DNA of 32,000 bases from Halorhodospira halophila SL1 (GCF_000015585.1 NC_008789.1:1620001-1652000), one strand, 5' to 3'. Positions 4,132 through 23,027 are shown, counted from the stretch's first letter. Program-made: numbers and translations. The notes: generated by a model not told the origin, from the sequence alone.

Positions 4132-4284
4132 GCTCCAAACAGCCAGAAAGGCGCGCGGCGCGCCCTTTGCTAAACCTAGCAGGCGCTCGCACGGTCCACA
4201 GCAAGTGTTATGCTCTTAACGGTTATGGTCGAATGGTCATCAGATCCATCACCACCTAGTCGCACTCACCTGGAGCCGGCACGG

Positions 4285-8949: not shown

Positions 8950-9120
8950 CACATTGTTTTCGGAGCAACCCATGGGCCGCGCGAATTCATGGTTACCCAC
9001 GGGGAACAACTGAGGGCGGCCCAGACTAGCGGTTTGCGGAGGTTATCGCTCCTCGGTACTGTGACGACGGGCCGGGGGTATGATTCGCCCTGATGGGGCT
9101 TTTCCATGGAGGTGTCCAGA

Positions 9121-9765
9121 ATGAGCGAGGACATGAACGACAAGTCGACCAAGAAAACCTCGGAAACGAGCACCAAGAGCAGCACCACCAAATCCACGGG
9201 AAGCACGGCCAAGGCCGGCGCCACCAAGTCCGAGAGCGCCAAGTCCGAGGCTGCCAAGTCGGGCACGGTGGAGACCGCCGCTGAGCAGGGCAGTGCCAGC
9301 AAGGGCACCAGCAGCACGACCGGCAAGGCGAGCAGCTCCGCCTCGACCAGCAGCTCCACGGCCTCGGGCTCTGCGGCTTCCGGCTCCAGCAAGAGCAGCA
9401 GCGACAGCGGCGAGGCCTTCCTCGGCAATTCCGGGCTACCGCGTCACTTCGCCGCCGGTCTGTCCTATGTCGGCGGGCCCATTACGGGTGCCATCTTCCT
9501 GCTGCTCGATCGCGCCGACCCGTTCGTGCGTTTCCACGCCGCACAGTCGCTGGCGATTTCCGCCGTCATTGCCGTGATCTGGATCTGCGTGGCAATCCTC
9601 AACGCCGCCTTCGCCGGGATGCCCCTGGTGTTCTGGGTGGGTCTGATCGGCCTGCTGTTCATGGCCTTCAACGCGTTCCAGAGCAAGGACTGGGAGGTTC
9701 CGGTCCTCGGCGAGTACTCGCAGAAGCTCTCCGACAAGGTGTCGCCTGAGGACAAGACCGACTAA
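9121..9765 (+). CDS. membrane protein with Ser/Thr/Lys-rich disordered N-terminal region and DUF4870/Tic20-like C-terminal membrane domain
   Basis: The ATG at 9121 has GGAGG 8 nt upstream. The track's ATG at 9106 has no RBS. About 100 aa are low complexity (KSTKKTSETSTKSSTTKSTGSTAKAGATKSESAKSEAAKS...SSSASTSSSTASGSAASGSSKSSSDSG). They are followed by 'YVGGPITGAIFLLLDRADPFVRFHAAQSLAISAVIAVIW' and further TM helices. Confidence 0.65.
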   Translation: MSEDMNDKSTKKTSETSTKSSTTKSTGSTAKAGATKSESAKSEAAKSGTVETAAEQGSASKGTSSTTGKASSSASTSSSTASGSAASGSSKSSSDSGEAFLGNSGLPRHFAAGLSYVGGPITGAIFLLLDRADPFVRFHAAQSLAISAVIAVIWICVAILNAAFAGMPLVFWVGLIGLLFMAFNAFQSKDWEVPVLGEYSQKLSDKVSPEDKTD

Positions 9766-9848: not shown

Positions 9849-9988
9849 TCCCCTGCCACTTCCCCCGCTCGAACCTCCACTACACTTGACTGGTGACGGT
9901 CCAGTATCGCAGCCACTGGCCAGCGTTTAGGTCGATATTCAGATCCGGTGGGATTTTTTCGAAAGGCGCGAGCCGCGGAGGTTGGCAA

Positions 9989-11521
9989 GTGGGTTTAGAG
10001 CAACTCTATCAGCACATTATCCAGCAGCTGCGCGCCTCCTGGCGGCGCCGGTGGTGGCTGATCCCGGTCGCGTGGGCGGTCTGCCTGGTCGGCTGGGCTT
10101 ACATCAACACCTTACCCGATGTCTATCAGTCTTCAAGCCGCGTCTACGTAAACTCTCAGACCGTGCTCGAACCCCTGTTACGCGGTATGACCGTCCGTCC
10201 GGACACAGAGCAGCGCGTCCGCATGATGACTGTAACCCTTCTCAGCAACGACAACCTCAGGGAGATCGCTCGCCAAGCGGATCTCGATGTCCTGCTCAAC
10301 CAGGATAATGAACAAGCGTTGATCGGCACCTTGCGCGGCGGCATTCAATTGGACGGTGGCCGGCGCGATAACATCTACACCATCGCCTTTTCCCACCGGG
10401 ATCCCGAGGTCGCCTATCGGGTCGTCCGCGAGACCTCCAATCTGTTCATGGAGCGCGGCCTTGGCGACTCGCGGGTTGATCTCGCCTCCTCGCAGACGTT
10501 CATCGAGCGACAGCTCCAACGTTACGCCAGTCAGCTGCAGAACAAGGAGGCTGAGCTTGAATCCTTCAAGCGTGAGAACCATTCGCTGCTCAGCGCTGGC
10601 GGCAACTATTACACCCGGCTGGAGCGCGCTCGCGACGCCCTTGAGCAGGCACAGCTCGAGCGGGACGAACACGCCCAACGTTTAGAAACTCTGCAGGCCA
10701 GGCTCGAAAAAGACAGACAATCCCCCATTGCCGAGGACGCGCATTTGAGTAACCCCCGGCTGGACCAACGGATCAGCCGGCTGGAATCCCAGCTCGATGA
10801 GATGCGGCGCCACTTCACGGATGCCCACCCGGACGTCGCCCAAACTCGACGCATCCTCAAGGAGCTTGAGGAGCGGCGCCGTGAAGAAACCCGCATGGCT
10901 CTCGCAGATCCCGCTCGGTCCGTCGAGGGCGTTGTCGGCAGCCCGCTCCGGTTGGCATTGGTTGACGCAGAAAGCCATGCTGCTTCGCTGGAAACCCGCG
11001 TTCAAGAGCATAAGCGGCGCGTGGAGAACATCGCCGCGCTTGTCGATCAGGTTCCTGCCATCGAATCCCGATTCAATGCCTTAAAGCGCGACCACGAGGT
11101 GCTGCAGCAAAGCTATCGCCAACTGCTGACCACCCGCGAGCGGGCCGCCATGACCGGGTCCGTCGAGACCGAGACGGCTGCCGTCGATTTCCGGGTCCTG
11201 GAGCCGCCGACACGGCCGAGTTCGCCGTCCGCACCCGATCGCCCCCTGCTTGCGAGCGGTGTCCTCCTGCTAGGCCTCGGCGCCGGCTCCGGACTGGCCT
11301 ACCTGCTCGCTCAGTTGCGCGGCACCGTCACCTCCACCGCACGCCTGGCGGAGATCACCCGTCGCCCCGTACTGGGCTCGGTCACCCGGGTCCCGACCCC
11401 GAACCGGCGGCGGCGTCAACGGCTCGAGCTCATGATCTTTGCAGGGATCCTCGGAACCCTCTTTGTGGCCTATCTGATGGTGTTGGCGTACTACGGCGGC
11501 GGGGGGTTGTGGCCGTTCTAG
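9989..11521 (+). CDS. PEP-CTERM-locus-type polysaccharide chain-length determinant (EpsF/Wzz-like PCP), orphan paralog without adjacent kinase
   Basis: Collinear over its full length with the EpsF at 28674-30218: shared 'LRA(S/T)WRRRWW..P.AW.VC..GWAYI..LPD.Y..SS.VYV', 'GMTVRPD.EQR', 'NLREIARQADLD', 'DPEVAYRVVR', 'LFMERGLGD', 'HPDVA.T.R.L', 'VDFRVL.PP', plus a C-terminal RRRR+TM. The start is placed at the GTG at 9989, which has GGAGG 7 nt upstream and aligns with the paralog's N-terminus. The track start at 9893 adds 32 unaligned residues. Confidence 0.8.
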   Translation: MGLEQLYQHIIQQLRASWRRRWWLIPVAWAVCLVGWAYINTLPDVYQSSSRVYVNSQTVLEPLLRGMTVRPDTEQRVRMMTVTLLSNDNLREIARQADLDVLLNQDNEQALIGTLRGGIQLDGGRRDNIYTIAFSHRDPEVAYRVVRETSNLFMERGLGDSRVDLASSQTFIERQLQRYASQLQNKEAELESFKRENHSLLSAGGNYYTRLERARDALEQAQLERDEHAQRLETLQARLEKDRQSPIAEDAHLSNPRLDQRISRLESQLDEMRRHFTDAHPDVAQTRRILKELEERRREETRMALADPARSVEGVVGSPLRLALVDAESHAASLETRVQEHKRRVENIAALVDQVPAIESRFNALKRDHEVLQQSYRQLLTTRERAAMTGSVETETAAVDFRVLEPPTRPSSPSAPDRPLLASGVLLLGLGAGSGLAYLLAQLRGTVTSTARLAEITRRPVLGSVTRVPTPNRRRRQRLELMIFAGILGTLFVAYLMVLAYYGGGGLWPF

Positions 11522-13263
11522 GCCAGGGTGCGGACGATCTGCCAGCTGTAATCGCGGGCCGGCCAGCGCAGGGGCTCAGGATCGCAGCCGGCCACGGCGC
11601 GACCCAGACTGCAATGGGCCTCGCCCCCCGCCGCCTCTCCGTCTAACGGAGCAGACGCCGAGGGGCACGGCGTCAAGGACCAGCCCCCCGGGTTCAACAC
11701 CCGTGCACCTGAGTCCGGCTGGCCCAACAAGGTCCAACGCGCAATCAGGTGACGGTTGTCCCCATCCCAGACCATCTCCACGCGCCAGCTGTGACCCGCC
11801 AGACGAGGCGGTGAGGCGCCCTGGCGCCGCTGCCAGGCACCACCGAGGAGCCGCCAATCGATGGCGTCCCGGATCCGTTCCCTCCAGGAGCCGGCGCGCG
11901 GCCGGCACAGCGCTACGGGGGCACCCTCGCCCCACCAACGCAGCCCCACAGCCGTCGATGCCCACCCGGTGCGTTCAAAAAGCAGGGGACCGTACAGCTC
12001 GCCCCCATCGAGCACCAGCGGCACCCACCCGGCCTGCCGCGGCTCGGCCAGCCAGTCGGATCGAGGGCGCCGCGTCGCGCTTGGAAGGACCGGCTGCCCC
12101 GCTACCTCCAGGTGAAAGGCCTGCCCCGCCGCCGATCGCAGATCCCCTTCGCCCCGGCTATAGCCCTGCACCGCCTGACCCTTGAGGTTCACACAGACGG
12201 TCCAGTCATCGCCATCGGCCCGCAGAAGCCCCGCCGCCCGGTCTTCCCGGGGCGCTCGCTCTGCCGAACCACCGAGATTGAACTCGCACACCGGTGCGCG
12301 ACCGGCGACCAGCGCCTCATCGCCGTCGGCCACCAGGCTGAGTAAGCCGGCCGTCCAAGCGTTGTAGACGCTCAAGTGCATATACCGGTCCCACCCCCCT
12401 TCAGCGCCGCTGCGACACGCCGGCGTCAGCCACAGAAGTCCATCCTCCCGCCTTTGGCGCTCCAGACGCTGGCGCAGGGCTTCGAGCAGCACCACCCCGG
12501 AGTGGCCCCTCTCCAGGCCATCGCCGCCGGACGACAAAACGCCGCCGAGCACCGCCATCAGGCAGGCGTCCCCGAAGAGGGCGTGATTGCTCCGTCCGAG
12601 GCCACCGCAATACCCCCCTCGCGTCGCTACCAGATCCAGCCAGGACCATCCGCGCTCGAGCAGGGCGCGGAGCCGCGGGTGATCGACCCGGCACACCGCC
12701 AGCCAGAGGCAGAGCAGCGCTTTCACATGGTAGGCCACCGGGGTCGCAACCCGACCACCGCTCCCAGCCGGAAAATCCACGAAGCCCCCGGCCGAGGTCA
12801 TCCAGCGCTCGGTCAGGGCAGCCAACCGTTCCGCGCGGCGTTGACGAAGAAACGGCGTCTCCGCCTCAAGGAGGCGAACCGTAGCGGCGAGCAGGGTCCA
12901 GTTGTTCGACGGATAGCGCCTGCGCAAGCGGCATCCGCGAAGCGCGCGGCGTACGCGATCCCGATCGGCCTGCTGCGCGCCTTCGCGCTCAAGCCGACTC
13001 TCCAGCAGCCGAAGCCCAAGGCGATTGAAGGGCTCGTGGCCGCGCTGCGCAACCGGTAGCGCCGTCCAGGCATCCAGCGGCCGCCGCCAATCCCCGAACT
13101 GCGGGTGCACGTGTAGTGCGAGTGCGGCGAAGATCGGCGCATAATGATCGGTCGGTGTCCAGCCGTCCAGGGTGTCCGGCTCGCGCAACCGGCCGTCCGG
13201 CTCCAGATAGGCAGCCAGACCGCCAACCCAAGGCTCCAGCCAAGCCCGCTCGATCACCGGCAC
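11518..13263 (-). CDS. hypothetical soluble protein, last gene of the eps operon (possibly alpha/alpha-toroid plus beta-sandwich, heparinase II/III-like; function uncertain)
   Basis: 581-aa ORF whose GTG start overlaps the upstream GT4 gene by 10 nt. No TM helices and no signal peptide are evident. The N-terminal half is helical and Trp/Leu-rich (e.g. 'SNHALFGDACLMAVLGG', 'YMHLSVYNAWTAGLLSL'). The C-terminal half is beta-like ('TVCVNLKGQAVQGYS', 'FHLEVAGQPVLPS'). The coding call is solid; the functional call is weak. Confidence 0.55.
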   Translation of the reverse strand: MPVIERAWLEPWVGGLAAYLEPDGRLREPDTLDGWTPTDHYAPIFAALALHVHPQFGDWRRPLDAWTALPVAQRGHEPFNRLGLRLLESRLEREGAQQADRDRVRRALRGCRLRRRYPSNNWTLLAATVRLLEAETPFLRQRRAERLAALTERWMTSAGGFVDFPAGSGGRVATPVAYHVKALLCLWLAVCRVDHPRLRALLERGWSWLDLVATRGGYCGGLGRSNHALFGDACLMAVLGGVLSSGGDGLERGHSGVVLLEALRQRLERQRREDGLLWLTPACRSGAEGGWDRYMHLSVYNAWTAGLLSLVADGDEALVAGRAPVCEFNLGGSAERAPREDRAAGLLRADGDDWTVCVNLKGQAVQGYSRGEGDLRSAAGQAFHLEVAGQPVLPSATRRPRSDWLAEPRQAGWVPLVLDGGELYGPLLFERTGWASTAVGLRWWGEGAPVALCRPRAGSWRERIRDAIDWRLLGGAWQRRQGASPPRLAGHSWRVEMVWDGDNRHLIARWTLLGQPDSGARVLNPGGWSLTPCPSASAPLDGEAAGGEAHCSLGRAVAGCDPEPLRWPARDYSWQIVRTLA

Positions 13264-14531
13264 GGACCCTCCCCGCCCCCGCCGGCAGGCCGACGCGCAC
13301 CCTGCCCGGCGCCGTCAGCGGCGGCCTCGAGCTTGTCCACCAAGGAGGGGATCCGGGTCTGCCAGGCGTTCGCCTGCGCGTAGTCCAGGATCACCTGCCG
13401 ATCCCAGTCATACGCCAGGGCCTCAACAATGGCCCGGCGCAGCGCCTCCGTATCCCCGAACGGCACCAGCGTCCCGAGCTGGTCGTGAGCGATCACCTCG
13501 GCGTTACCCCCGACATCGGTGGTCACCGTAGGCAGCCCGCAGGCGGCCGCCTCGAGGAAGACATTCGCCCACCCTTCGAAACGGGTGGGGAGCACGAAAA
13601 GGTCCGCCGCCGCGTAGTAAAAGCGAAGGCGCTCCGAGGCCACCGCACCGGCAAAGTGCACACGCTCCGCCACCCCCAGATCTTTTGCCAGATCCCGCAG
13701 GCGCTGTTCGTCATTGCCGTCGGGGCTCCCCCCTCCCACAGCCAGGTAGTGGAGGTCGCCGATCTGCTCGTCCAGGGACGGCATCAGCTCGATCACCCGA
13801 TGAAACCCCTTGCGCTCGTTCAGCGTCCCGACCGTAATCAACACTTGGGCACGCTCCGGGATCCCGAGCGCTCGCCGGCAGGCCATCCGATCCTCAGGCC
13901 CGAATAGCGCCAGGTTGATCCCGTTCGGAACGACCTCCACGGACCGCTGCGGCTCCATCCCCAGCGCCACACTGCGCAGCGACTCCGAAACCGAGAAGAC
14001 CCGCGCGGCATGGCGTAGCGCTCGCCGCGCCAGGAAACGGCGCACCCGGGTGCGCGAGATCCGCACGATGGTCCCCCGCAGGGTCACCGTGTAAGGGCAG
14101 CCCAGCCACCAAGCGGCGAGCCAGGCGGCCACCCCGTCCGGGTAGATGAAATGCGCGTCGAGCAAATCGAGCTGACCCCTTCGGCGCAGCCGCCGCAGGG
14201 TGGGCAACGCCCCGAGGGCCTGGAACAGACCGTCGAGGCTTTTCAGCACACCCGGCAGGCAGAGGAAACGCGGGTGGTAGACGGTCGTCCCGGCTTGTTC
14301 CTCGCAATACGCCACAGAGGGCCGATACCACGGCCTCCAGCGCCGGACGATACCCTCCCCCGGAAACCAAGGTACCGGTGCCACCACAACCACCGGCAGG
14401 GAATCGGCCACCCGGGTCATACGCTCGCGCACGAAGACCCCGAAGGTGGGCTGCGCCTCGTTGGGGTAAACGCGGGTGAAGACCACCACGCGCGGCCCTT
14501 GCCGGCGATCCGATACTTGGCCGCCCGTCAC
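13254..14531 (-). CDS. GT4-family (GT-B, retaining) glycosyltransferase
   Basis: 425 aa, with a GTG start 2 nt after the upstream gene's stop. The C-terminal 'LFVLPTRFEGWANVFLEAAACGLPTVTTDVGGNAEVI' is the EX7E glycosyltransferase group-1 signature. Confidence 0.8.
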   Translation of the reverse strand: MTGGQVSDRRQGPRVVVFTRVYPNEAQPTFGVFVRERMTRVADSLPVVVVAPVPWFPGEGIVRRWRPWYRPSVAYCEEQAGTTVYHPRFLCLPGVLKSLDGLFQALGALPTLRRLRRRGQLDLLDAHFIYPDGVAAWLAAWWLGCPYTVTLRGTIVRISRTRVRRFLARRALRHAARVFSVSESLRSVALGMEPQRSVEVVPNGINLALFGPEDRMACRRALGIPERAQVLITVGTLNERKGFHRVIELMPSLDEQIGDLHYLAVGGGSPDGNDEQRLRDLAKDLGVAERVHFAGAVASERLRFYYAAADLFVLPTRFEGWANVFLEAAACGLPTVTTDVGGNAEVIAHDQLGTLVPFGDTEALRRAIVEALAYDWDRQVILDYAQANAWQTRIPSLVDKLEAAADGAGQGARRPAGGGGEGPCR

Positions 14532-14533
14532 GG

Positions 14534-15781
14534 CTACGACACCCCCTCGGGAACGCGCCGACCGTTAGCAGCCTCGGCCGCCGTGATCACGCGTCGTGCA
14601 TTCTCGAGCCAGGTGTAGCCGTGCTGGTGGATCCGGTGGGCGCCGTTCCCGGCCAGGGTCTCTCGGGCCGCAGGGTCTTCGAGCAGTTCGACCAGGCGGT
14701 CCGCAAGGGCCTGCCAGTTGTTGGGCGGGAAGAGGCGTGCGGTCACCCCGTCCTCGACGACTTCGCGGATATTGGGCCGATCCGGGGCAACCACCGCTCG
14801 GCCGACACCCAGATACTCGAAGAGCTTGATCGGTGAGGCGTAGGCGGTCACGTCGGGCTGCACGGCAACATCCAAGGCAGCGATGTGTGCCGGGATCTCC
14901 GAGCGCTCGACCGGCCCAGTGAAGACCACCCGCTTGGTAATCCCCAGCGCTTCGGCCTGTCGCTGCAGCGCCGGTACCGCGGGGCCGTCGCCAACAATCA
15001 ACAACCGCGCCGCACTCCCGCCGTGCAGCCGCGGCGCCATCGCCTCCAGCAACCCATCCACGCCGTGCCATGGGCGGATCCAGCCGACGAAGCCCACCAC
15101 CTGGCAGCCCGTCAGCCCGTAGCGTGCCCGGATGGCATCGCCATCGACCCCGGGATGGAAGACCGAGCCGTCCACCCCGTTGGGCAACACCAGCAGCCGC
15201 CCTTCCGGCACGCCACGCTCGATAAAGATCCGCGCCATGGCGTGACTAACCACCACCGTGCGGGTTGCCGATCGACAGAGCCAGTCTTCGATCCACTGCG
15301 CCGCCCGGCGCCAGACCAGCCCCCCGTGGGCCTCAAGCTCGAGGCTGAGCGGCGCATTGACCTCGAGGATGAAGGGGCGACGGATCAGCCGGGCCACCAA
15401 CAGTCCCGCGAAGGAGAACAGCGAATACCGTTCGTAGATCAGATCGGGGCGCCGTGCCAGCACACGCGCGAGGAGCAGGGCGAACGCCGGGCCGTTGTAG
15501 GCCAGTGCCAGCAGCTCATAGAGCCAGTGCGGGATCGCCCGACCGGCCAGGGTCGGACCGGCTTCGGCGGCCGCTTCCCGTTGCCCGGCCCCCTCCCCCT
15601 GCCCATCCTTTTCGATGCGCTCAGAGCGCGACCCTCGTGCTCTTCCCGGTGTTCGCCGCAACGATCGCGGCTCGACGATATCCACGGTATGGCCAAGCGC
15701 GCGAAACGCATCGACCAGCGCGCGGATGTGCACGCCCTGCGCGTCCTCGGCCCGGGTGCGATGGTGGTAGAGAATCCTCAC
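14534..15781 (-). CDS. GT4-family glycosyltransferase
   Basis: 415 aa. The GTG start forms a GTGA overlap with the stop of the upstream PaaK-like gene. Signatures: 'MRILYHHRTRAEDAQGVHIRALVDAFRALGH', the nucleotide-sugar-binding half 'VGFVGWIRPWHGVDGLLEA', and 'IKLFEYLGVGRAVVAPD'. Confidence 0.75.
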   Translation of the reverse strand: MRILYHHRTRAEDAQGVHIRALVDAFRALGHTVDIVEPRSLRRTPGRARGSRSERIEKDGQGEGAGQREAAAEAGPTLAGRAIPHWLYELLALAYNGPAFALLLARVLARRPDLIYERYSLFSFAGLLVARLIRRPFILEVNAPLSLELEAHGGLVWRRAAQWIEDWLCRSATRTVVVSHAMARIFIERGVPEGRLLVLPNGVDGSVFHPGVDGDAIRARYGLTGCQVVGFVGWIRPWHGVDGLLEAMAPRLHGGSAARLLIVGDGPAVPALQRQAEALGITKRVVFTGPVERSEIPAHIAALDVAVQPDVTAYASPIKLFEYLGVGRAVVAPDRPNIREVVEDGVTARLFPPNNWQALADRLVELLEDPAARETLAGNGAHRIHQHGYTWLENARRVITAAEAANGRRVPEGVS

Positions 15782-17091
15782 GGCTCAAGCGCCTCGCTTT
15801 CCACCCAGCGATACTTCCCGGACGCACTCGGCGGTATCACGGAAACCCGCTCGAAACGCACCGGCACCTCCATCCCGAGGGTCCGACGCAGGCCCTCTGC
15901 CACCTGACGCGCCTCGGCCTCCCCCCAATCGGCATCGGCAACCACCTGGATATCCAGGCTCCGGTCCGTTCGCTGCACAAGCCGGTATTGCACCACCTGC
16001 GGCACTTCCCGGAGCACATAGTTCGCCGCTGAGCCGTGGATCCGACGTCCCTCCGCCCCCACGAGGAAATCATTGCGACGCCCCTCTAACCGGTCGAGCA
16101 CCGGCAGCGGCGAGCCGCAGGGACAGGCTCCAGCGCTGACCCGGCCTCGATCCCCGACGCGGTAGCGGATCAGGGGCATGCCGAAACCGTCCAGGTTGGT
16201 GATCAGCAGATCGCCCACCCCGGAGGCGTCCGGCGCGTCCACCTCCACCCATACGTGCTCGGCGGCGATGTGCAGTCGCCCCTCACGACACTCATGGGCG
16301 GTCAGCCCGGCATCCCTAGACCCGTACTCATTGGCCACCGGCGGCGCTCCCAAGCCCGCTGTAATCGCCTCGCGCAGCTGCGGATAGAGCATCTCGGAGG
16401 TGCAGACGACCAAATCGGGTCGCCACCCCCCTAGCAGTCGCGGGTGATCCGCCGCATGGCGTGCCACCCGGGCGATGACCGTCGGGTAGCCGTAAACAAG
16501 GTGGGGGCGGAACCGGCCGAGGAAGCGCAAATAAGCCTCCAACCGATCCGGGCTCAGATCGTGCGCCGAACACAGCGCCTGGTTGAGCAGATACTGATCC
16601 TTGAACCGGCGAAACCGCGACGACTTGTTCAACTCGACGGGGGATCCCCAGAAATCCACTTGCCGATCCCCTGGGCGCACCCCGAACCAAGTGCGAAAAC
16701 GCAGCTTATGGGCGTTATGCCGGGTCTCCTTGACCGGATCGGTCCAGAACGTGAGCGGACGCCCCGAAGATCCGCCGGTGGACGAGGGCAGGAGCCTGCC
16801 CGGGTAGTGATCGCTACACAGCGCATCGCCGTGCTCGCGCACGGTATCCCGCTCGAGCACTGGGAAATCGGTGACCTCCAGGGCCCCGTTAGCGGGCAGC
16901 CGCGCCCGATAGAACGGCACCCGATCCCGACAGTGCTCCAGGAGGGCCGCCAGCTTCTCGCGACGCAGCCGGTACACCGCGTCGGGGTGCTGCTCGCCCC
17001 GACGCAGGGCCGCCAGTTCGGCGAGGGTTGCCCGGCCACGCAGCCGCTCATGGGCGGGCAACAGGAGCCCACGGACCAGCCAGGGGGTCAC
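15778..17091 (-). CDS. phenylacetate-CoA-ligase/CapK-like adenylate-forming enzyme
   Basis: The P-loop-like motif 'SSTGGSSGRPLTFW', plus 'EMLYPQLREAI', 'ANEYGSRDAG', 'GMPLIRYRVGDRG' and the C-terminal 'SASGKYRWV' fit the PaaK/F390-synthetase/CapK family. The start is placed at the GTG at 17091, which forms a GTGA overlap with the AsnB stop. The track start at 17145 would overlap asnB by 58 nt. Confidence 0.7.
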   Translation of the reverse strand: MTPWLVRGLLLPAHERLRGRATLAELAALRRGEQHPDAVYRLRREKLAALLEHCRDRVPFYRARLPANGALEVTDFPVLERDTVREHGDALCSDHYPGRLLPSSTGGSSGRPLTFWTDPVKETRHNAHKLRFRTWFGVRPGDRQVDFWGSPVELNKSSRFRRFKDQYLLNQALCSAHDLSPDRLEAYLRFLGRFRPHLVYGYPTVIARVARHAADHPRLLGGWRPDLVVCTSEMLYPQLREAITAGLGAPPVANEYGSRDAGLTAHECREGRLHIAAEHVWVEVDAPDASGVGDLLITNLDGFGMPLIRYRVGDRGRVSAGACPCGSPLPVLDRLEGRRNDFLVGAEGRRIHGSAANYVLREVPQVVQYRLVQRTDRSLDIQVVADADWGEAEARQVAEGLRRTLGMEVPVRFERVSVIPPSASGKYRWVESEALEP

Positions 17092-19001
17092 CGCGCCCCC
17101 TCCACACAGCGGCGCAGGAAGGACTCCAGCATCAGCAGGGCCCACAGCGGACGGGCGTGATTGCTTCGCCCGGACTGGTGTTCATCGACCAGGGTGCGCA
17201 ACCGGCTCGCATCGAAGTAACCGCTGTCCATCAGCCGTTTGCCGAGCACGGCTTCGCGGAGCCGCTGGCGCAGCGGTCCGCGAAACCACTCCGCGATGGG
17301 CATATTGAACCCCTGCTTGGTGCGGTAGAGGACATCGTGGGGCAGGCGATCCTCGAAGGCCCGCTTGAGGAGCCACTTGCCCTGCTGATTGCGGACCTTG
17401 AGATCCGTAGGCAACCGCCCCGCCCACTCCATGAACCGGTGATCGAGCAGCGGCACCCGCACCTCCAGCCCGTGGGCCATGCTTGCCCGATCCACCTTGG
17501 TCAGGATGTCGCCCGGCAACCAGGTTTTGAGATCCAGGTACTGCACAAAGGCGAGCGGGTCGTGGGTCGGTGCCTCGGCGGCGTGGCCACGCAGCACCTC
17601 GGCGGCGTGGTACCCCTGCAGTTCGCGCTGAAACCGCTGCGAGAACAGCCGGGCGCGCTGATCGTCATCGACCACCGCGACGCTGCGCAGATACCCGGCC
17701 ACCGGATCCGCCGCCAGCGCCTGGAAAGTCGCCTTGCCACGCAGGTACTTAGGTGCCCAGTCGGCCTTCGGGTACCAGCGGGCCAGCGACCCGAACAGAC
17801 CTCGTCGAAGGCCATCCGGTAGCCGCCCCCGCAGCCGGGCCTCCCGCTGATAACCGCGGTAGCGTCGGTACCCCGCCAGCACCTCATCGCCCCCGTCCCC
17901 GGATAGCGCCACCGTAACGTGCTGCCGCGCGATCCGGCTGACCTCGTAGGTAGGAAGAGCCGACGGGTCGGCGAAGGGCTCGTCGAAGAGCAGCGCCAAC
18001 TCGTCGATCAGGTCGAAACGCTCCGAATCCACCTTGTGGATGTGGTGGTTGAGGCCCAGGTGCCCGGCCACCTTCCCGGCGTGCTCCGCCTCGTCGTAAT
18101 GCGGATCGCGGAAGGCAATGGAGCACGCATCCACCGGACGGTCACTGAGTTCGCTCATCAACGCCACCACGACACTGGAGTCGACCCCGCCGGAGAGGAA
18201 AGCGCCCAGAGGGACCTCGGCCTCAAGACGGATGTCCACCGCCTCGCGTAGCTGCGCGACCAACGCCTCGCCGGCCTGCTCCGCCGACAACGAGCGATCT
18301 GAGCTGCTATCGAACGTAGCGTCCCAATACTGTCGCGGGGGCCCCATCGGTTCACCGCGGCGTAGCAATAACGTATGCCCCGGCGGCAGCTTGCGTACGG
18401 CCGCAAAGATGCTCCGCGGATCCGGCACATAACCGTAGGCGAAGTAATCCTCGATCGCCCTCGGATCGAGGTCTCTCGGCACCTCGGCGCAGGCCAGCAG
18501 GGCCTTGATCTCGGACGCGAACAGCACCCGTCCGTCGGGGAGTTCGGCGTAGCACAGGGGCTTGATCCCGAGCCGATCGCGGGCCAGGAATAACGCCTGC
18601 TCATTGCGATCCCAGACCGCCAGGCTGAACATCCCGCGGAAGTGCTCGACGCAACGCTCGCCCCACTCCTCCCAGGCGTGCACAATGACCTCGGTATCAC
18701 AGCGCGTGGCGAAGTCGTGCCCGCGCTGCTCCAGTGTCGACCGCAGCTCGGCATGGTTGTAGATCTCGCCGTTGAAGACGGTGATCACCCGGCCATCTTC
18801 ATTGGCAAGCGGCTGCTGCCCCCCCGCGCGATCGATGATTGACAAGCGACGGTGGCCGAGCCCGACCCCGGCCTCCTGATGGATACTCGAATCGTCCGGT
18901 CCCCGGTGGGCCAGGCTCTCGGTCATGCGCCGCAAAAGCGCCTCGTCGCCGGCGCGCCCGCCTTCCAGGGCGTGATCCAGGATTCCGACTAACCCGCACA
19001 C
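17088..19001 (-). CDS. glutamine-hydrolysing asparagine synthase family amidotransferase (XrtA/PEP-CTERM-system-associated type)
   Basis: 637 aa. It begins (f)Met-Cys 'MCGLVGILD', the class-II glutaminase nucleophile. Further signatures are 'HRGPDD', 'RLSIID', and the PP-loop 'GAFLSGGVDSSVVVALM'. Its position right after the stp2 glycosyltransferase and XrtA matches the conserved locus order. Confidence 0.85.
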   Translation of the reverse strand: MCGLVGILDHALEGGRAGDEALLRRMTESLAHRGPDDSSIHQEAGVGLGHRRLSIIDRAGGQQPLANEDGRVITVFNGEIYNHAELRSTLEQRGHDFATRCDTEVIVHAWEEWGERCVEHFRGMFSLAVWDRNEQALFLARDRLGIKPLCYAELPDGRVLFASEIKALLACAEVPRDLDPRAIEDYFAYGYVPDPRSIFAAVRKLPPGHTLLLRRGEPMGPPRQYWDATFDSSSDRSLSAEQAGEALVAQLREAVDIRLEAEVPLGAFLSGGVDSSVVVALMSELSDRPVDACSIAFRDPHYDEAEHAGKVAGHLGLNHHIHKVDSERFDLIDELALLFDEPFADPSALPTYEVSRIARQHVTVALSGDGGDEVLAGYRRYRGYQREARLRGRLPDGLRRGLFGSLARWYPKADWAPKYLRGKATFQALAADPVAGYLRSVAVVDDDQRARLFSQRFQRELQGYHAAEVLRGHAAEAPTHDPLAFVQYLDLKTWLPGDILTKVDRASMAHGLEVRVPLLDHRFMEWAGRLPTDLKVRNQQGKWLLKRAFEDRLPHDVLYRTKQGFNMPIAEWFRGPLRQRLREAVLGKRLMDSGYFDASRLRTLVDEHQSGRSNHARPLWALLMLESFLRRCVEGAR

Positions 19002-19007
19002 TGGCAG

Positions 19008-20207
19008 TTATCCCTTCCTTGCCACGGAGCCGCTCCGCGCCGGTGGCGCCAATAGCTCGCGATAAAGACTTTCGTAAGCCCCGACCATGGCCTCGACCGA
19101 GAAATGCTCCACCGCTCGCCGGCGCCCTGCAGCCCCTTCCAACGACCGACGGTGCGGCTCCTGAAGGTAGCCGGCCAGCCCATCACACAGCTGCTCGGGA
19201 TCACCCGCAGGCACCAGCGTCCCGGTCACCCCCTCCTCAACCAGCTCCGGCAACCCGCCGACCCGCGATGCCACCACCGGAAGGCCACTGGCCATGGCCT
19301 CAAGGACCGTCACCGGGATCCCTTCGGCGAGGGAGGGCAACGCAAAGACATCGAACGCCGCCAACCGGGTCGCGACATCGGTGCAGTTGCCCGTGAGTTC
19401 CACGGCATCGGCCACATCCAACTCCGCCGCCAACGCCCGAAGCGACTGCTCTTCAGGACCACTGCCAATCACTACCAATCGCAGATCCCCGCGCTTGGCC
19501 GAGAACCGCTCGCGAAGACGGGCGAAAGCCCGGATAAGCGTCGCCTGGTCCTTCACCGCCGTCAGCCGCCCGACGGTGCCAATCACCAGGACGCCCCCTT
19601 GCCCCGAATCCTCCTCCGATGATCGCCTCGCGGCCCGATAACGCTTTGTATCGACGCCGTTGTAGATGTGGCGCACCCGGCGCTTGGGGATCCGCACCCG
19701 CTCGGTGAGATACTCGGCCAAGTGGCGGGAGACCGTCACGTGCCGTTGCACCCAGGGACTGAGGGCCCGCCGCAGCCAGCGGTACCGCCAGCGGGTCCCG
19801 TCGAGATCGGCCATGTCCCAACCGTGCTCCGCGTGGACGCGGCCCGGCACGCCGCTCAGCGCGGCCACCGGCTGGCACTCCAAAGCGGCCAGGTTCGACG
19901 TATGCACCACATCCGGCCGCAGCTGACACAACAACCGATAAAGACGCCACTGGGTACCCAACCCCCACCCGGGGGGCTTGTGGAGGGCATGGACGGGCAC
20001 TCCATCCGGTAGCCGGCGACGGAACGCTTCATCGTAATCCGCCAGACAGACGACGACATGCCGGAAACCATGGTGGACGCTGCCGCGGACCAGCTCGACG
20101 AGGATGTTCTCCAGCCCCCCGACATCCAGACGATAGAGGATATGGGCAATCAGCGGGCGCGAGCCCTGCCCATCCCGGGGGCGCCGGCGATCATGGTCGA
20201 TCGTCAA
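19008..20207 (-). CDS. glycosyltransferase, PEP-CTERM/EpsH1-system-associated 'stp2' type (GT4)
   Basis: 399 aa. 'RPLIAHILYRLDVGGLENILVELV' at the N-terminus and 'VFALPSLAEGIPVTVLEAMASGLPVVASRVGGLPELV' (EX7E) are present. The TTG start makes a TTGA overlap with the XrtA stop. It lies immediately downstream of xrtA, as in other XrtA loci. Confidence 0.8.
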   Translation of the reverse strand: MTIDHDRRRPRDGQGSRPLIAHILYRLDVGGLENILVELVRGSVHHGFRHVVVCLADYDEAFRRRLPDGVPVHALHKPPGWGLGTQWRLYRLLCQLRPDVVHTSNLAALECQPVAALSGVPGRVHAEHGWDMADLDGTRWRYRWLRRALSPWVQRHVTVSRHLAEYLTERVRIPKRRVRHIYNGVDTKRYRAARRSSEEDSGQGGVLVIGTVGRLTAVKDQATLIRAFARLRERFSAKRGDLRLVVIGSGPEEQSLRALAAELDVADAVELTGNCTDVATRLAAFDVFALPSLAEGIPVTVLEAMASGLPVVASRVGGLPELVEEGVTGTLVPAGDPEQLCDGLAGYLQEPHRRSLEGAAGRRRAVEHFSVEAMVGAYESLYRELLAPPARSGSVARKG

Positions 20208-21784
20208 CGTCCCCGAACCTCCTCCAGGGTCCCCAACAACTCGGGCAGCGCAGCCTCCGCAAAACGACGCAGGGCCGGCTCAACCTCCTCTGGATCATCG
20301 GGATAAAGCGCATAGAGCACCACCAGCGCTGCATCGTCGCGCCCCCCGAGCAAGCGGGACAGCGACTCCCGCGCCTTCACTTCGTGGGGGCTGGTGGTCA
20401 GCCGGTCCGTCACCCAGTACCAACGCCAGGCCAGGATCTGTCGATTCGGCCCGGTGAGCTCGAATCGTGCCGGGCGGGTCCAATCATCGATCTCCGCCCG
20501 CCCGGCCGAGCGTTGCCGCCAGGCGTCCCGATCCCGGCCGGCCATGGTATTATCCCAAGTGATCATATTCCCGTGCCGGAATTGCTCCCGGTAGTAGCCC
20601 ACGTAGACCCCCACCGGAACCCCTTGCCCATCGACATAGTGCCGGTGGAAGGCCGCGCGCGCGTTGCGATACCCCGGCTCCCAGGGATCGGCCTCGATCG
20701 CCTCCCAGTCATTGAGGGGCAGCTCCGCCTCCTCCAACCCGGCAACAGGGCCGAGATCCCGCTGATTCATCCATCCGGCGTAGAGCGGCCCGGAAGCGAC
20801 CAGTACTCCCCCCGTCAACGCCACCCCGGCAACCGCAGCAACCGAACGCGATCCAAGCCCTGTACTGTCGCTAAGCCGCTCCGCCATGCCACCGCCGCCT
20901 GGACCGGGCGCTGCCCCCTCGGAGATCGGCCGATCCTCGCGCCAGTAGGTCCCGATCCAGAACATCAGCGCGATCACCGCACCGAAGAACACCCAGCCAT
21001 AGATCAGATGATCGACCCCCGCGGCCAACTCCATGCCACTGAGATGTCCGATCATCACGATCGCATAGGCGCGCAGACCGTTGGCGAGGATCGGCACCAG
21101 GAACGAGAAGGCCACGAAAACCAGCCGGCGCATCCAGCTTCGGTAAACCAGGTAGGCGTACAGCGTGCCCAGGGCGACGGTAGCGATGAGGTAACGCACG
21201 CCACTGCACGCCTCGACCACGGACCAGCGGCCGGTCGGCAACTCGAAGTTCAGTCCTTCGCGATAGACCGGCACGCCGGTTTGCTGCACTGCCCATACCG
21301 TGAAGTCGGCAGTCCAGTCCATCAGCGGCGGGACCAGGAACTCACCGAATGGGACGGCAGAGATCAGGTAGGCCAGCGGGAAGAGCAGCGTCCAGGCGAC
21401 GGCGTTGCCCAGGCTCAGCCAGACGACAGCCGGGATCAGGAGCACCGCCGCGAAGTGGCGCACGGAGTCGACGTCCACCAACGCGCCGAGCACCCAGAGC
21501 AGGACCAGTCCGGCGACCGGCACCAGGGCCAGTGGTTGCACTCTGGGCTGTTGATCCGCCAGGGGGTGACGCAGCCGATAAACCAGGAAGAGGACGATGG
21601 GCACGATCAGGAAACCGTGGGCGAAGGTCTCTGAGCGTGACCAAATACCCACAATAGCCTGATAGGTTGGCAGGAAGGCGATCGCCAGCACCACGCCGAG
21701 CAGTGCCAATGCCGCCCCGTGCAGGTACCACGGCGCTCGATCCCCGAGCCCACCGCCGACAATCGCATCCGGGTTACTGGCCAT
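20204..21784 (-). CDS. xrtA: exosortase A (XrtA) fused to a C-terminal EpsI-family domain
   Basis: The N-terminal polytopic membrane domain carries 'WSRSETFAHGFLIVP' and the catalytic-Cys motif 'EACSGVRYLIATVALG', followed by 'ANGLRAYAIVMIGH'. After one further TM helix, about 200 aa ('YVGYYREQFRHGNMITWDN', 'WRWYWVTDRLTTSPHEVKA') look like EpsI. The ATG at 21784 has GAGG 6 nt upstream; the GTG at 21796 is an alternative start. Confidence 0.85.
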   Translation of the reverse strand: MASNPDAIVGGGLGDRAPWYLHGAALALLGVVLAIAFLPTYQAIVGIWSRSETFAHGFLIVPIVLFLVYRLRHPLADQQPRVQPLALVPVAGLVLLWVLGALVDVDSVRHFAAVLLIPAVVWLSLGNAVAWTLLFPLAYLISAVPFGEFLVPPLMDWTADFTVWAVQQTGVPVYREGLNFELPTGRWSVVEACSGVRYLIATVALGTLYAYLVYRSWMRRLVFVAFSFLVPILANGLRAYAIVMIGHLSGMELAAGVDHLIYGWVFFGAVIALMFWIGTYWREDRPISEGAAPGPGGGGMAERLSDSTGLGSRSVAAVAGVALTGGVLVASGPLYAGWMNQRDLGPVAGLEEAELPLNDWEAIEADPWEPGYRNARAAFHRHYVDGQGVPVGVYVGYYREQFRHGNMITWDNTMAGRDRDAWRQRSAGRAEIDDWTRPARFELTGPNRQILAWRWYWVTDRLTTSPHEVKARESLSRLLGGRDDAALVVLYALYPDDPEEVEPALRRFAEAALPELLGTLEEVRGR

Positions 21785-23027
21785 CAGCTGCCTCACTCAA
21801 CGCGTGTCCCTCATCGTCATCAATCCGTTCGGTCGTGCCAGCGAGCAGCCGGTCGAGCCGGCCAAGATGCCGGGCCCAACTGTAGTCCTGCACGACGCGC
21901 CTTCGCGCAGCTGCCCCCATACCATCGCCCCCGTCCAGGCACCGGCAGACCGCTTCGACCATTGCTTCCGGCTGCGCCTCGGCGCTTTCCACTTCCACCC
22001 CTAGGGCGACCTGCAGTCCTTCCAGGGCCTCCGGCGAAGCGACGATCGGCCGGCCGAGGGCCATCGCCTCGAGTACCTTGTTCTGGATCCCTCGGGCCAC
22101 ACGCAGCGGCGCCACGGCCACGGCTGCGTGACCAACCCAGGGGCGGACGTCGTCCACAAAGCCGGTGACGGTCACCCCGGGGCGGTTTGCCAGCGCAGCC
22201 ACTGCCGGCGTCGGCCGATTACCGACCACGTAGAACCGAGCCGCTGGCTCCCGGGCCCGGACCTGGGGAAAGGCCTCCTCAGCGAACCAGCAGGCCGCAT
22301 CGGCGTTCGGCCAATAATCCATGGCGCCCGTCAGGACCACCGGCCGCTCGTCGGCGGCGTAAGGGCTCGGCCCAAGAAGCCTCGGGTCGAAGTAGTCCGT
22401 ATCCACGCCGTTACTCATTGCCGAGACGCTTTGCGCCGACTCCGGCGCGAGACTCCGGAACGCCGCCGCCTCGTCCGTAGAAACAAACAAGCTGGCGTCG
22501 CTCGACGCCGCCAGGTGTCGTTCGTAGGCCAATAGCCGGCGTGCCTCGCGGGCAAAGACCGCCCGCAGGGGCCAGGGACGATGGCGCGCGTACTGACCCC
22601 ACTTATCGGAGTCGATGTCGACGAAATCCACCACCCGCAGTAGCGAAGGTGGCCGATCCGGCACGTACGGCCCCATCGACGAGGAGAAGCACATCGCGAC
22701 ATCGATTGGCTGCGCTTGGCACACCTGGCGAACCCACTGCGCCAGGTGCCGGTCCCGGTACCAGGGCAGGGTCAGCGGCTCTCCAGTGAGAAAACCGCCA
22801 AGCGCGCGCAGCTGCGCCCGCCGCCGCGGCAGTGGACGCGCGCACACGCTCGCGCAAACCGCTTCCAGGTCGGGGAGGAAACGCCAATCGTCCGGGTCAT
22901 CGACAAAGGTCCCGAGGTGGACCCGGTGGCGCTCCGTCAAGTGACGGAGGATATGGTAAGAGCGGATCTTATCGCCCTTGTTCGGCGGCCACGGCACGCG
23001 ATGCACCAGGAACAGGATCTCGGCCAC
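21774..23027 (-). CDS. glycosyltransferase, PEP-CTERM/EpsH1-system-associated 'stp1' type
   Basis: 417 aa. The N-terminus 'MAEILFLVHRVPWPPNKGDKIRSYHILRHL' is the highly characteristic start of this family. It sits directly upstream of xrtA and overlaps it by 11 nt. Confidence 0.85.
   Translation of the reverse strand: MAEILFLVHRVPWPPNKGDKIRSYHILRHLTERHRVHLGTFVDDPDDWRFLPDLEAVCASVCARPLPRRRAQLRALGGFLTGEPLTLPWYRDRHLAQWVRQVCQAQPIDVAMCFSSSMGPYVPDRPPSLLRVVDFVDIDSDKWGQYARHRPWPLRAVFAREARRLLAYERHLAASSDASLFVSTDEAAAFRSLAPESAQSVSAMSNGVDTDYFDPRLLGPSPYAADERPVVLTGAMDYWPNADAACWFAEEAFPQVRAREPAARFYVVGNRPTPAVAALANRPGVTVTGFVDDVRPWVGHAAVAVAPLRVARGIQNKVLEAMALGRPIVASPEALEGLQVALGVEVESAEAQPEAMVEAVCRCLDGGDGMGAAARRRVVQDYSWARHLGRLDRLLAGTTERIDDDEGHALSEAADGQ

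What the first reader, a model, noticed from the sequence alone, without database searches (positions are those of the whole stretch)
11518..13263. Unassigned 581-aa soluble protein translationally coupled to the last glycosyltransferase of the XrtA operon
The operon ends with a large ORF whose GTG start overlaps the preceding GT4 gene by 10 nt. I see no TM segments, no signal peptide and no diagnostic motif. The composition suggests a helical (alpha/alpha-toroid-like) N-terminal half and a beta-rich C-terminal half, an arrangement seen in heparinase II/III-type lyases and epimerases. I cannot confirm that from sequence alone. It is not one of the conserved XrtA-locus families that I know of.
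Basis: inference. Interest (0 to 1): 0.6.

Follow-up and report, generated by a model that had tools for sequence, protein, structure and literature searches.

The report
Uncharacterised lyase-fold enzyme in XrtA operon
The last gene of this exopolysaccharide (XrtA/PEP-CTERM) operon encodes a real, conserved, cytoplasmic two-domain protein from a small unnamed family that is distantly related to enzymes acting on uronic-acid sugars, so it is probably a sugar-tailoring enzyme whose exact reaction is unknown.

Summary
The ORF is real. It lies at 11518-13263 on the minus strand and gives 581 aa from GTG 13263, or 579 aa from GTG 13257 with a GTGA overlap. It is the last gene of a 14-gene XrtA operon. 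It is under purifying selection and has no signal peptide or TM segment. No Pfam or NCBIfam model matches it. The family is small: 265 cluster representatives among 1.84 billion proteins. The best whole-protein structural match is a PL35 glycosaminoglycan lyase. The only sequence-level link is to DUF2264/GH154, recently shown to be beta-glucuronate 4,5-dehydratases. The shared motifs are NNW, D-x-P, H and GRS. The family's invariant R224 aligns with the dehydratase's essential R285, but its acid Tyr289 is not conserved. Homologs sit almost always in EPS loci: 43 of 46 have EPS-type neighbours and 30 of 46 carry an XrtA-system marker. In 20 of 56 loci the gene directly follows the exosortase-A-associated Wzy-like gene, and one homolog is fused to a GT2. 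My best reading is a cytoplasmic lyase-fold enzyme that removes the C5 proton of a uronate in the EPS precursor; I favour an epimerase over an eliminase. This is a new variant of a known kind, of moderate interest.

The parts
11518..13263 (-). Target gene: 581 aa from GTG 13263, or 579 aa from GTG 13257. Stop TAG at 11520-11518.
13254..13272 (-). Coupling region. Holds GGAGG (13272-13268), GTG (13263-13261), GTG (13257-13255) and the TGA stop of the upstream GT4 (13256-13254). The overlap is 10 nt or 4 nt (GTGA).
12304..13263 (-). N-terminal alpha-helical, (alpha/alpha)6-toroid-like domain, residues 1-~320.
   Evidence: AF2 model. Foldseek hits to GH88/GH105/GH76/AGE/GH154 toroids and the PL35 N-domain.
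11521..12249 (-). C-terminal beta-sandwich domain, residues ~339-581.
   Evidence: Only weak fold matches (PL26, GH38, mutarotase-like, PL15).
12898..12906 (-). NNW motif (N120 N121 W122). N121 is invariant in the family and in its distant tier-2 relatives. It aligns with NNW of the DUF2264 glucuronate dehydratase.
12775..12777 (-). D163 (F-V-D-F-P). Invariant in both tiers; aligns with D of 'YSDGP' in BcGDH.
12721..12732 (-). Y178-H179-V-K181. Y178 is invariant in both tiers and H179 nearly so. H179 aligns with H235 of BcGDH. Y178 lies 57 residues after N121, the Asn-to-Tyr spacing seen in PL35/PL17/PL12 lyases.
12583..12597 (-). G223-R224-S-N-H227 (GRS motif). R224 is invariant in both tiers and aligns with the essential R285 of BcGDH. 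H227 is invariant in the XrtA-type tier only.
12364..12390 (-). D292-R-Y294-M-H-L-S-V-Y300. Y294 and Y300 are invariant in both tiers.
12112..12138 (-). Beta-domain conserved residues. R376 is conserved in both tiers. H384 is >=90% conserved in the XrtA-type tier only.
13254..14531 (-). Upstream GT4 glycosyltransferase, translationally coupled to the target.
14534..15781 (-). Second GT4 glycosyltransferase.
15778..17145 (-). CapK/PaaK-like AMP-dependent ligase. The public gene call starts later (437 aa) and overlaps the AsnB gene by 4 nt.
17088..19001 (-). XrtA/PEP-CTERM system amidotransferase (AsnB-like, TIGR03108, above the curated cut-off).
20204..21796 (-). Exosortase A fused to an EpsI domain (TIGR03109 and TIGR02914). 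It marks the operon as an XrtA locus.
9893..11521 (+). Convergent XrtA-system chain-length determinant paralog (TIGR03007). Its stop codon overlaps the target's stop codon.

Best explanation
The gene encodes a cytoplasmic, two-domain carbohydrate-tailoring enzyme: an (alpha/alpha)6 toroid plus a beta-sandwich. It belongs to a small, unnamed family specific to exopolysaccharide loci. It is made in step with the last glycosyltransferases of the XrtA operon.

I propose that it acts on the lipid-linked repeat unit or nascent chain at the cytoplasmic face, before the Wzy-like exosortase-A-associated 'O-glycosylation ligase' handles the unit. The proposed chemistry is that of the lyase-fold superfamily (PL35/PL15/PL17, GH154 dehydratase, DS-epimerase):
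- an Asn/Arg pair (N121, R224) neutralises the carboxylate of a uronic-acid residue;
- a Tyr/His (Y178/H179, perhaps with H227 or H384) removes the C5 proton.

The resulting enolate is then either re-protonated from the other face (C5 epimerisation, which I favour) or collapses by 4,5-elimination (dehydratase- or lyase-type).

Shown here: real gene, operon position, fold, no export signal, conserved polar motifs, EPS/XrtA-locus association, and remote similarity to DUF2264 including the essential Arg.

Inferred: a uronate substrate, cytoplasmic action on the lipid-linked intermediate, residue roles, and the reaction outcome.
For: Fold and structural neighbours:
- AF2 model has pLDDT 93 and pTM 0.94, helical over 1-320 and beta-rich over 339-581.
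- Foldseek best full-length hit is PL35 GAGase VII (8khw), E 5.9e-6, with both domains aligned.
- The GH154 glucuronate dehydratase 9nwf scores E 6.7e-5, and PL15 exoHep 5.3e-4.

Sequence link to DUF2264/GH154:
- A profile of the central toroid region hits BcGDH (9o4u/9nwf) at E 0.0011. NNW, DG..D.P, H and GRS are aligned.
- R224 aligns with R285, whose Ala mutant is inactive.
- That PDB fragment is PF10022.
- 4 of 62 family members and 5 of 10 tier-2 relatives give sub-threshold DUF2264 hits over the same profile region.
- hhalign against DUF2264 fragments gives probability 58%, E 1e-4.

Conserved residues:
- Invariant in both the family and its distant tier are N121, D163, Y178, R224, Y294 and Y300. 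H179, D292 and R376 are nearly invariant.
- The N121-to-Y178 spacing (57) matches the Asn-to-Tyr spacing of PL35, PL17, PL12 and PL39 (53-57; PMC12088678).
- The dehydratase's acid Tyr289 is not conserved (it aligns with A228), which fits a different fate for the enolate.

Localisation:
- No signal peptide or TM segment in 62 members.
- One homolog is fused to a cytoplasmic GT2 domain.

Context:
- The gene is last in the XrtA operon, coupled to a GT4.
- 8 close orthologous loci share this synteny in whole or in part.
- In 20 of 56 loci the gene directly follows the TIGR03097 PEP_O_lig_1 gene on the same strand. GT2 and AsnB-like genes often lie just downstream.
- 43 of 46 loci have EPS-type neighbours, and 30 of 46 carry a strict XrtA-system marker.

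Precedent:
- A heparinase-fold protein (GnlB) in Acinetobacter capsule biosynthesis loci had been predicted to make an L-configured sugar (bioRxiv 10.64898/2026.07.20.739706).
Against: - No curated family is matched. All DUF2264 scores (12-17 bits) are below Pfam's 25-bit cut-off, and the profile-profile probability is only 58%.
- (alpha/alpha)6 toroids host many chemistries. GH76, GH8, GH88/105 and AGE 2-epimerases score nearly as well in Foldseek.
- The C-terminal domain alone matches nothing significantly.
- I could not superpose coordinates, so no catalytic-residue equivalence is structurally verified.
- The HMM alignment puts BcGDH's proposed base Y229 opposite A173, not Y178.
- H384 is not conserved in the tier-2 relatives.
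- A uronate in this EPS is not shown. A motif search (regex for the catalytic-Cys motif) found a UDP-sugar 6-dehydrogenase-like ORF within 10 kb in only 3 loci, and none in the window.
- In a Wzy-type pathway the polymer is periplasmic, so a cytoplasmic enzyme would have to act on the lipid-linked unit. That is unusual for known polymer-level C5 epimerases.
Confidence: 0.45

Rival explanations
1. It is a degradative or processing enzyme for the operon's own polymer: a polysaccharide lyase or glycoside hydrolase that trims, releases or clears EPS. This would parallel AlgL, PslG, BcsZ or PelA in other EPS operons.
For: The best full-length fold match is an endo-acting PL35 lyase, and PL15 also matches. 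Many EPS operons are known to carry a cognate depolymerase (established knowledge). The position at the operon end is compatible with this role.
Against: The known operon-encoded depolymerases are exported. This family has no signal peptide in any of 62 members, and one member is fused to a cytoplasmic GT2. No lyase or GH Pfam model is hit. The beta-domain His (H384) is not conserved across the wider family.
Confidence: 0.15
2. It is a toroid enzyme with non-uronate chemistry, acting on a neutral or amino sugar of the repeat unit. Examples would be an AGE-type 2-epimerase/isomerase or a GH76/GH8/GH88-like hydrolase or transglycosylase.
For: Foldseek N-domain matches to cellobiose, glucose and GlcNAc 2-epimerases, GH76, GH8 and GH88/105 lie at E 1e-4 to 3e-3, close to the uronate enzymes. 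The tier-2 profile also touches GH76 and an N-acylglucosamine 2-epimerase weakly. Local evidence for uronate synthesis is thin.
Against: The GH76 sequence hits cover only a generic helical hairpin (profile positions 7-75). The motif-bearing core (NNW, D-x-P, H, GRS) aligns specifically with the DUF2264 dehydratase, including its essential Arg. The whole-protein two-domain match is to lyases.
Confidence: 0.2
3. It is a non-catalytic partner: a carbohydrate-binding scaffold or chaperone for the Wzy-like exosortase-A-associated ligase/polymerase or for the glycosyltransferases.
For: It is adjacent to the TIGR03097 gene in 20 of 56 loci and fused to a GT2 in one. No activity has been shown.
Against: About 40 invariant positions in the family include many polar His, Tyr, Asn, Arg and Asp residues. 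Six of these are also invariant in relatives of ~20-25% identity that lie in other genomic contexts. This pattern is typical of an active site rather than a scaffold.
Confidence: 0.1
4. The ORF is a non-coding artefact of a GC-rich sequence.
For: The window is 66% GC, and long spurious ORFs occur in all frames.
Against: Third-position excess of substitutions (105/86/238), 126 homologs at E<=1e-3, 265 cluster representatives, AF2 pLDDT 93, and conserved synteny.
Confidence: 0.01

Closest known systems
DUF2264 / 'GH154' beta-D-glucuronate 4,5-dehydratases (BcGDH, PDB 9O4U/9NWF; BT_3677), Pfam PF10022
   Same: The catalytic domain is an (alpha/alpha)6 toroid, and BT_3677 is reported to have a second domain next to the active site (PMC12269599). 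This is the only family reachable by sequence: PDB profile hit E 0.0011, and sub-threshold Pfam hits in 9 members. The shared motifs are NNW, DG..D.P, H and GRS. The family's invariant R224 aligns with the essential R285.
   Different: Scores are below Pfam's cut-off, and hhalign probability is only 58%. The proposed acid Tyr289 and base Tyr229 are not matched by the alignment (they fall opposite A228 and A173). GH154 enzymes are catabolic, sit in polysaccharide-utilisation loci and pair with GH88/GH105. This family sits in biosynthetic EPS operons with glycosyltransferases.
PL35 glycosaminoglycan lyases (GAGase VII, PDB 8KHW) and related toroid + beta-sheet lyases (PL15, PL17, PL12, PL21, PL39; 'Hepar_II_III superfamily')
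   Same: The two-domain architecture is the same, and this is the best whole-protein Foldseek match (E 5.9e-6, 674 aligned columns). An Asn...Tyr pair has the same ~55-residue spacing, and there is a conserved His in the beta domain (N121, Y178, H384, compared with N187, Y241, H397).
   Different: TM-score is only 0.46 with rmsd 11 A. No lyase Pfam model is hit. The C-terminal domain alone is not significantly similar. H384 is not conserved in the wider family. These lyases are secreted or periplasmic catabolic enzymes, whereas this protein has no export signal.
Lyase-fold C5 epimerases (human dermatan-sulfate epimerase DS-epi1) and heparinase-fold proteins in capsule biosynthesis loci (Acinetobacter GnlB)
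   Same: They give a biosynthetic rather than catabolic use of the toroid + beta-sandwich fold. GnlB is reported as heparinase-like within a capsule biosynthesis locus. DS-epi1's relation to heparinase II is from my own knowledge and was not tested here.
   Different: No sequence or structure comparison with these proteins could be run here. DS-epi1 acts in the Golgi lumen on the polymer, whereas this protein is predicted to be cytoplasmic.
Curated XrtA/PEP-CTERM-associated families (NCBIfam TIGR03006-03019, TIGR03087/88, TIGR03097-03101, TIGR03108)
   Same: It has the same genomic neighbourhoods. It follows TIGR03097 directly in 20 of 56 loci, and lies near TIGR03099, TIGR03108, stp1, stp2 and XrtA.
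   Different: No NCBIfam model covers it. It is absent from the published marker set as far as these libraries show. 16 of 46 loci show no strict XrtA marker within 10 kb.

Membership tests
Heparinase II/III-like (Pfam Hepar_II_III PF07940, its N-terminal domain model, Alginate_lyase PF05426) | A significant match to the Pfam models | tested here: not met
   hmmscan of the protein and of 61 homologs found no hit to any lyase model, even at E<=1.
Heparinase II/III-like superfamily (fold level) | [quoted passage not shown] | tested here: met
   AF2 model with pLDDT 93. The full-length Foldseek top hit is PL35 8khw at E 5.9e-6, and PL15 6lja scores 5.3e-4. The C-domain alone is inconclusive, with best E 3.7e-3.
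Heparinase II/III-like superfamily (mechanism) | An Asn (or Arg/Glu) neutraliser, a Tyr in the toroid and a His in the beta domain, all lining the inter-domain cleft | tested here: inconclusive
   Candidates N121, Y178 and H384 exist with lyase-like spacing. No coordinate superposition was possible, and H384 is lost in tier-2 relatives.
DUF2264 / GH154 uronate dehydratase (PF10022) | A score above Pfam's gathering threshold (25 bits) | tested here: not met
   The window protein gives no hit. 4 of 62 homologs and 5 of 10 tier-2 relatives score 12-17 bits, E 0.003-0.07.
DUF2264 / GH154 uronate dehydratase | Essential Arg in the GRS motif (BcGDH R285) | tested here: met
   The profile alignment to 9o4u/9nwf places invariant R224 on R285, and the inactive mutant chain reads GAS at that site.
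DUF2264 / GH154 uronate dehydratase | Catalytic tyrosines: Y229 as base and Y289 as acid to O4 | tested here: not met
   By HMM and hhalign alignment, Y289 falls opposite A228 and Y229 opposite A173. Nearby Y178/H179 and H227 could substitute, but this is unverified.
XrtA/PEP-CTERM system-associated gene set | A curated NCBIfam/TIGRFAM model for the protein | tested here: not met
   No NCBIfam hit at E<=1.
XrtA/PEP-CTERM system-associated gene set | Recurrent location in loci that carry XrtA-system markers | tested here: met
   30 of 46 loci with >=12 kb held carry PEP_O_lig_1, dCO2ase_PEP1, the XrtA amidotransferase, stp1 or XrtA within 10 kb, and 43 of 46 have EPS-type neighbours. A genome-wide co-occurrence test was not possible.

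The most novel reading that the evidence does not exclude
The family is a previously unrecognised class of cytoplasmic, biosynthetic lyase-fold enzymes. It would work with the exosortase-A-associated Wzy-like protein and modify a uronic acid on the lipid-linked repeat unit. The modification would be either C5 epimerisation to an L-uronate or a 4,5-unsaturated cap. Either would give XrtA/PEP-CTERM floc polysaccharides a defining chemical feature, and would show that the catabolic GH154/PL toroid machinery has been recruited for polysaccharide synthesis in bacteria.
Probability: 0.3. Interest if true: 0.6.

Novelty: new variant of a known kind. Interest (0 to 1): 0.45.

Why it matters
XrtA/PEP-CTERM loci drive floc and biofilm formation in wastewater and sediment bacteria, but the chemistry of their polysaccharides is largely unknown. 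This gene defines a compact family that no database names: 265 cluster representatives in 1.84 billion proteins. The family tracks these loci and has a confidently predicted enzyme fold. If it is a uronate C5-epimerase or eliminase acting during synthesis, three things follow. It would add a bacterial, cytoplasmic, biosynthetic branch to a superfamily known almost only from catabolism. It would predict a specific sugar feature of the EPS. It would also justify a new curated family model for XrtA-locus annotation. If it proves to be an ordinary depolymerase, it is a routine accessory gene.

Tried and rejected
- Pfam and NCBIfam scans of the protein and of 61 homologs gave nothing above threshold.
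- A full-length family profile against PDB sequences gave no hit even at E<=10. Only the tier-2 profile and a trimmed core profile reached BcGDH.
- A model of the C-terminal domain alone, searched by fold, gave no significant match. I therefore could not show that it is a Hepar_II_III-type beta domain.
- Seeding a protein search with the BcGDH fragment returned only short DUF2264 fragments. The resulting DUF2264 alignment was poor, and hhalign reached only 58% probability.
- I looked for local evidence of uronate synthesis with a motif regex. A UDP-sugar 6-dehydrogenase-like ORF lies within 10 kb in only 3 loci, and none is in the window.
- Sulfotransferases next to the Halochromatium fusion gene suggested a GAG-like polymer, but they occur in that one contig only.
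- A literature search for exosortase plus heparinase found no paper. One search failed on syntax. Another call failed on wrong coordinates.
- The plasmid collection holds no homolog.
- The exact protein P0110 (Aromatoleum ebA4313) was not on record for a context look-up.
- I rejected the reading of H384 as a universal catalytic His, because it is not conserved in tier-2 relatives.
- I rejected the non-coding artefact reading.


Full report
**Observation**

It runs 13263 to 11518, starts with GTG and encodes 581 aa. The reverse strand reads GGGGAGGGTCC-GTG-CCG-GTG-A. The longest ORF therefore overlaps the TGA of the upstream GT4 gene (13254..14531) by 10 nt. A second in-frame GTG at 13257 gives the classic 4-nt GTGA overlap. 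The public gene call for the identical protein uses the second start (P0001, 579 aa; Logan assembly of SRR5961519, contig 27). The annotated 75%-identical Halorhodospira ortholog uses the first, and both GTGs are conserved there. Either way the gene is translationally coupled.

The ORF is genuinely coding:
- Substitutions against the L001 ortholog fall 105/86/238 on codon positions 1/2/3.
- 126 homologs score E<=1e-3, and the 120 listed are all at E<=6e-58.
- AlphaFold2 with a 62-sequence alignment gives pLDDT 93 and pTM 0.94.

No TM segment or signal peptide is present in it or in 61 homologs.

**Operon**

NCBIfam places the upstream genes, all on the minus strand and tightly packed, in the XrtA/PEP-CTERM system. 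In order they are:
- chain-length determinant
- tyrosine autokinase
- TIGR03016 outer-membrane protein
- ATPase
- polysaccharide deacetylase
- FemAB-like protein
- stp1
- exosortase A fused to EpsI
- stp2
- the AsnB-like amidotransferase
- a CapK/PaaK-like AMP ligase
- two GT4 glycosyltransferases
- the target

The target is the last gene. Its TAG stop overlaps the TAG stop of a convergent second chain-length-determinant paralog (9893..11521) in a CTAG palindrome.

**What the protein is**

Neither Pfam nor NCBIfam matches it at E<=1. None of 62 family members hits a lyase model. An exhaustive HMMER search of 1.84 billion cluster representatives finds only 265 relatives at E<=1e-3, so the family is small.

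Foldseek against the PDB gives these matches:
- The best hit, and the one that covers both domains, is the PL35 glycosaminoglycan lyase GAGase VII (8khw, E 5.9e-6, TM 0.46).
- The PL15 exo-heparinase also aligns over both domains (E 5.3e-4).
- All other hits are (alpha/alpha)6 toroids aligned to the N-domain only. They include the GH154 glucuronate dehydratase 9nwf (E 6.7e-5), GH88/GH105 unsaturated glucuronyl hydrolases, PL27, GH76 and AGE-type 2-epimerases.

The C-terminal domain, modelled alone (pLDDT 92.6), has no match better than E 3.7e-3. Its weak matches are PL26, GH38, mutarotase-like sandwiches and PL15 at 0.06. Its kinship with the heparinase-type beta domain is therefore not established.

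**Sequence bridge**

The exhaustive search also revealed a second tier of 600-690-aa relatives at ~20-25% identity. They are unambiguously homologous over residues 4-456 (hhalign probability 100, E 1e-58).

Residues invariant in both tiers are N121 (of an NNW motif), D163, Y178, G223-R224 (a GRS motif), Y294 and Y300. H179, D292 and R376 are nearly invariant.

Nine members of the two tiers give sub-threshold hits to Pfam DUF2264, over the same part of the model. A profile of the motif-bearing core hits just one PDB family, the Bacteroides caccae beta-D-glucuronate dehydratase BcGDH (9o4u E 0.0011; 9nwf). The alignment pairs NNW with NNW, F-x-D-x-P with Y-S-D-G-P, H179 with H235, and G-R-S with G-R-S. 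The 9nwf chain is the inactive R285A mutant and reads G-A-S at that position. The family's invariant R224 therefore corresponds to the dehydratase's essential arginine. That PDB fragment is DUF2264 by Pfam (E 1.5e-36).

DUF2264 is the former GH154. It has been re-assigned as a family of uronate 4,5-dehydratases that use a lyase-like Tyr/Tyr/Arg mechanism (PMC12269599).

The link is weak but coherent. hhalign against a poor alignment of DUF2264 fragments gives 58% probability, E 1e-4. It does not amount to membership:
- The Pfam cut-off is not reached.
- The dehydratase's acid Tyr289 aligns with A228.
- Its proposed base Tyr229 aligns with A173.
- Y178/H179 and, in the XrtA-type tier, H227 lie close by in sequence.

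The 57-residue spacing from N121 to Y178 equals the neutraliser-to-Tyr spacing tabulated for PL35, PL17, PL12 and PL39 lyases. H384 in the beta domain is >=90% conserved in the XrtA-type tier but not in tier 2.

**Genomic context elsewhere**

A scan of one genome per species returned 61 loci. They come from Ectothiorhodospiraceae (Halorhodospira, Ectothiorhodospira, Thioalkalivibrio), Chromatiaceae, Rhodocyclaceae (Thauera, Azoarcus), Competibacteraceae and a few Planctomycetota MAGs.
- Eight close orthologs share, in whole or in part, the window's synteny (stp1, XrtA, stp2, AsnB, ligase, GT4, GT4, target).
- In 20 of the 56 loci where the target ORF was called, the gene directly follows, on the same strand, the TIGR03097 'putative O-glycosylation ligase, exosortase A system-associated' Wzy-like gene. 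A GT2 and an AsnB-like gene often lie just downstream. TIGR03099 decarboxylase, adenylating ligases, FemAB-like acyltransferases, deacetylases and a PglK-like ABC transporter lie nearby.
- In Halochromatium glycolicum the protein is fused to a C-terminal GT2 domain (residues 608-741).
- Of 46 loci with at least 12 kb held, 30 carry a strict XrtA-system marker within 10 kb and 43 have EPS-type neighbours.
- The one tier-2 relative examined lies in an unrelated context.
- No plasmid homolog exists in PLSDB.

**Interpretation**

The family is a conserved, cytoplasmic, EPS-locus-specific enzyme with a lyase-type fold. Its only detectable sequence relatives abstract the C5 proton of glucuronate.

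I therefore propose that it tailors a uronic-acid residue of the lipid-linked repeat unit. N121 and R224 would hold the carboxylate, and Y178/H179 (with H227 or H384) would act as base and acid. Three points lead me to favour C5 epimerisation over 4,5-elimination:
- the setting is biosynthetic and cytoplasmic;
- the dehydratase's O4-protonating tyrosine is missing;
- lyase-fold proteins have been found or predicted in biosynthesis (GnlB; DS-epimerase, from my own knowledge).

This step is inference. The substrate is also inferred. Local evidence for uronate synthesis is thin, although AsnB-type amidotransferases are frequent neighbours.

The rivals are a self-polymer depolymerase (argued against by the lack of any export signal), a toroid enzyme with non-uronate chemistry, and a non-catalytic partner of the Wzy-like protein.

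**Verdict**

The specific heparinase II/III assignment is not met, and the nearest sequence relative is instead DUF2264/GH154. The gene represents an unnamed family that deserves an 'XrtA-locus-associated' model. It is a new variant of a known kind of enzyme, of moderate interest until an activity is shown.

Noticed in passing
window 9893-11521 (+) and 28674-30218 (-): The locus holds two paralogous XrtA-system chain-length determinants, both above the TIGR03007 cut-off. One is the first listed gene of the operon. The other is convergent to the operon's end, and its TAG stop overlaps the target's TAG stop in a CTAG palindrome, so there is no intergenic terminator. The arrangement is conserved in L001 and L002.
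   Followed up: partly
window 5104-7032 (+): A 642-aa ORF has no Pfam or NCBIfam match. It lies directly after a trypsin-like/HtrA-like serine protease gene (4210-5094). The public assembly also calls it as a gene.
   Followed up: no
window 9106-9765 (+): A 219-aa protein has a long Ser/Thr/Ala/Lys-rich low-complexity N-terminal half and a weak DUF4870 / MamF-MmsF-like membrane domain. It lies just upstream of the convergent chain-length determinant.
   Followed up: no
L064 8001-10799 (Halochromatium glycolicum, P0069): This is a natural fusion of the family's full two-domain unit (residues ~11-570) with a C-terminal GT2 domain (608-741). It is flanked by the Wzy-like TIGR03097-type gene, an Asn-synthase-like gene and two sulfotransferases (Sulfotransfer_2 and Sulfotransfer_3). 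The sulfotransferases occur in this contig only.
   Followed up: partly
L031 11814-14387 (-) and 8 other loci (ORF cluster 17): A ~750-1100-aa protein with no family match lies next to the target's homolog in 5 of 9 loci (Thioalkalivibrio, Azoarcus, Competibacteraceae). It is another unnamed component of these EPS loci.
   Followed up: no
L063 8001-9941 (tier-2 relative P0160, JGI metagenome 3300031952): The distant tier of the family (600-690 aa, same NNW, YH, GRS and YxxxxxY motifs) lies here outside any obvious EPS locus. It overlaps a nitroreductase-methyltransferase fusion gene by 4 nt and precedes a DUF6754 gene.
   Followed up: no
window 26195-27781 (-) versus 27660-28658 (-): The longest ORF of the TIGR03016 outer-membrane protein overlaps the tyrosine-kinase gene by 122 nt. 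The family match starts only at residue 66, so the true start is probably further downstream.
   Followed up: no
window 15778-17145 (-): The AMP-dependent ligase is CapK/PaaK/F390-synthetase-like (CapK_C in the public call, 437 aa). It is not the curated exosortase-A-associated ligase TIGR03098. A related ligase lies ~2.2 kb upstream of the target's homolog in many Rhodocyclaceae loci.
   Followed up: partly
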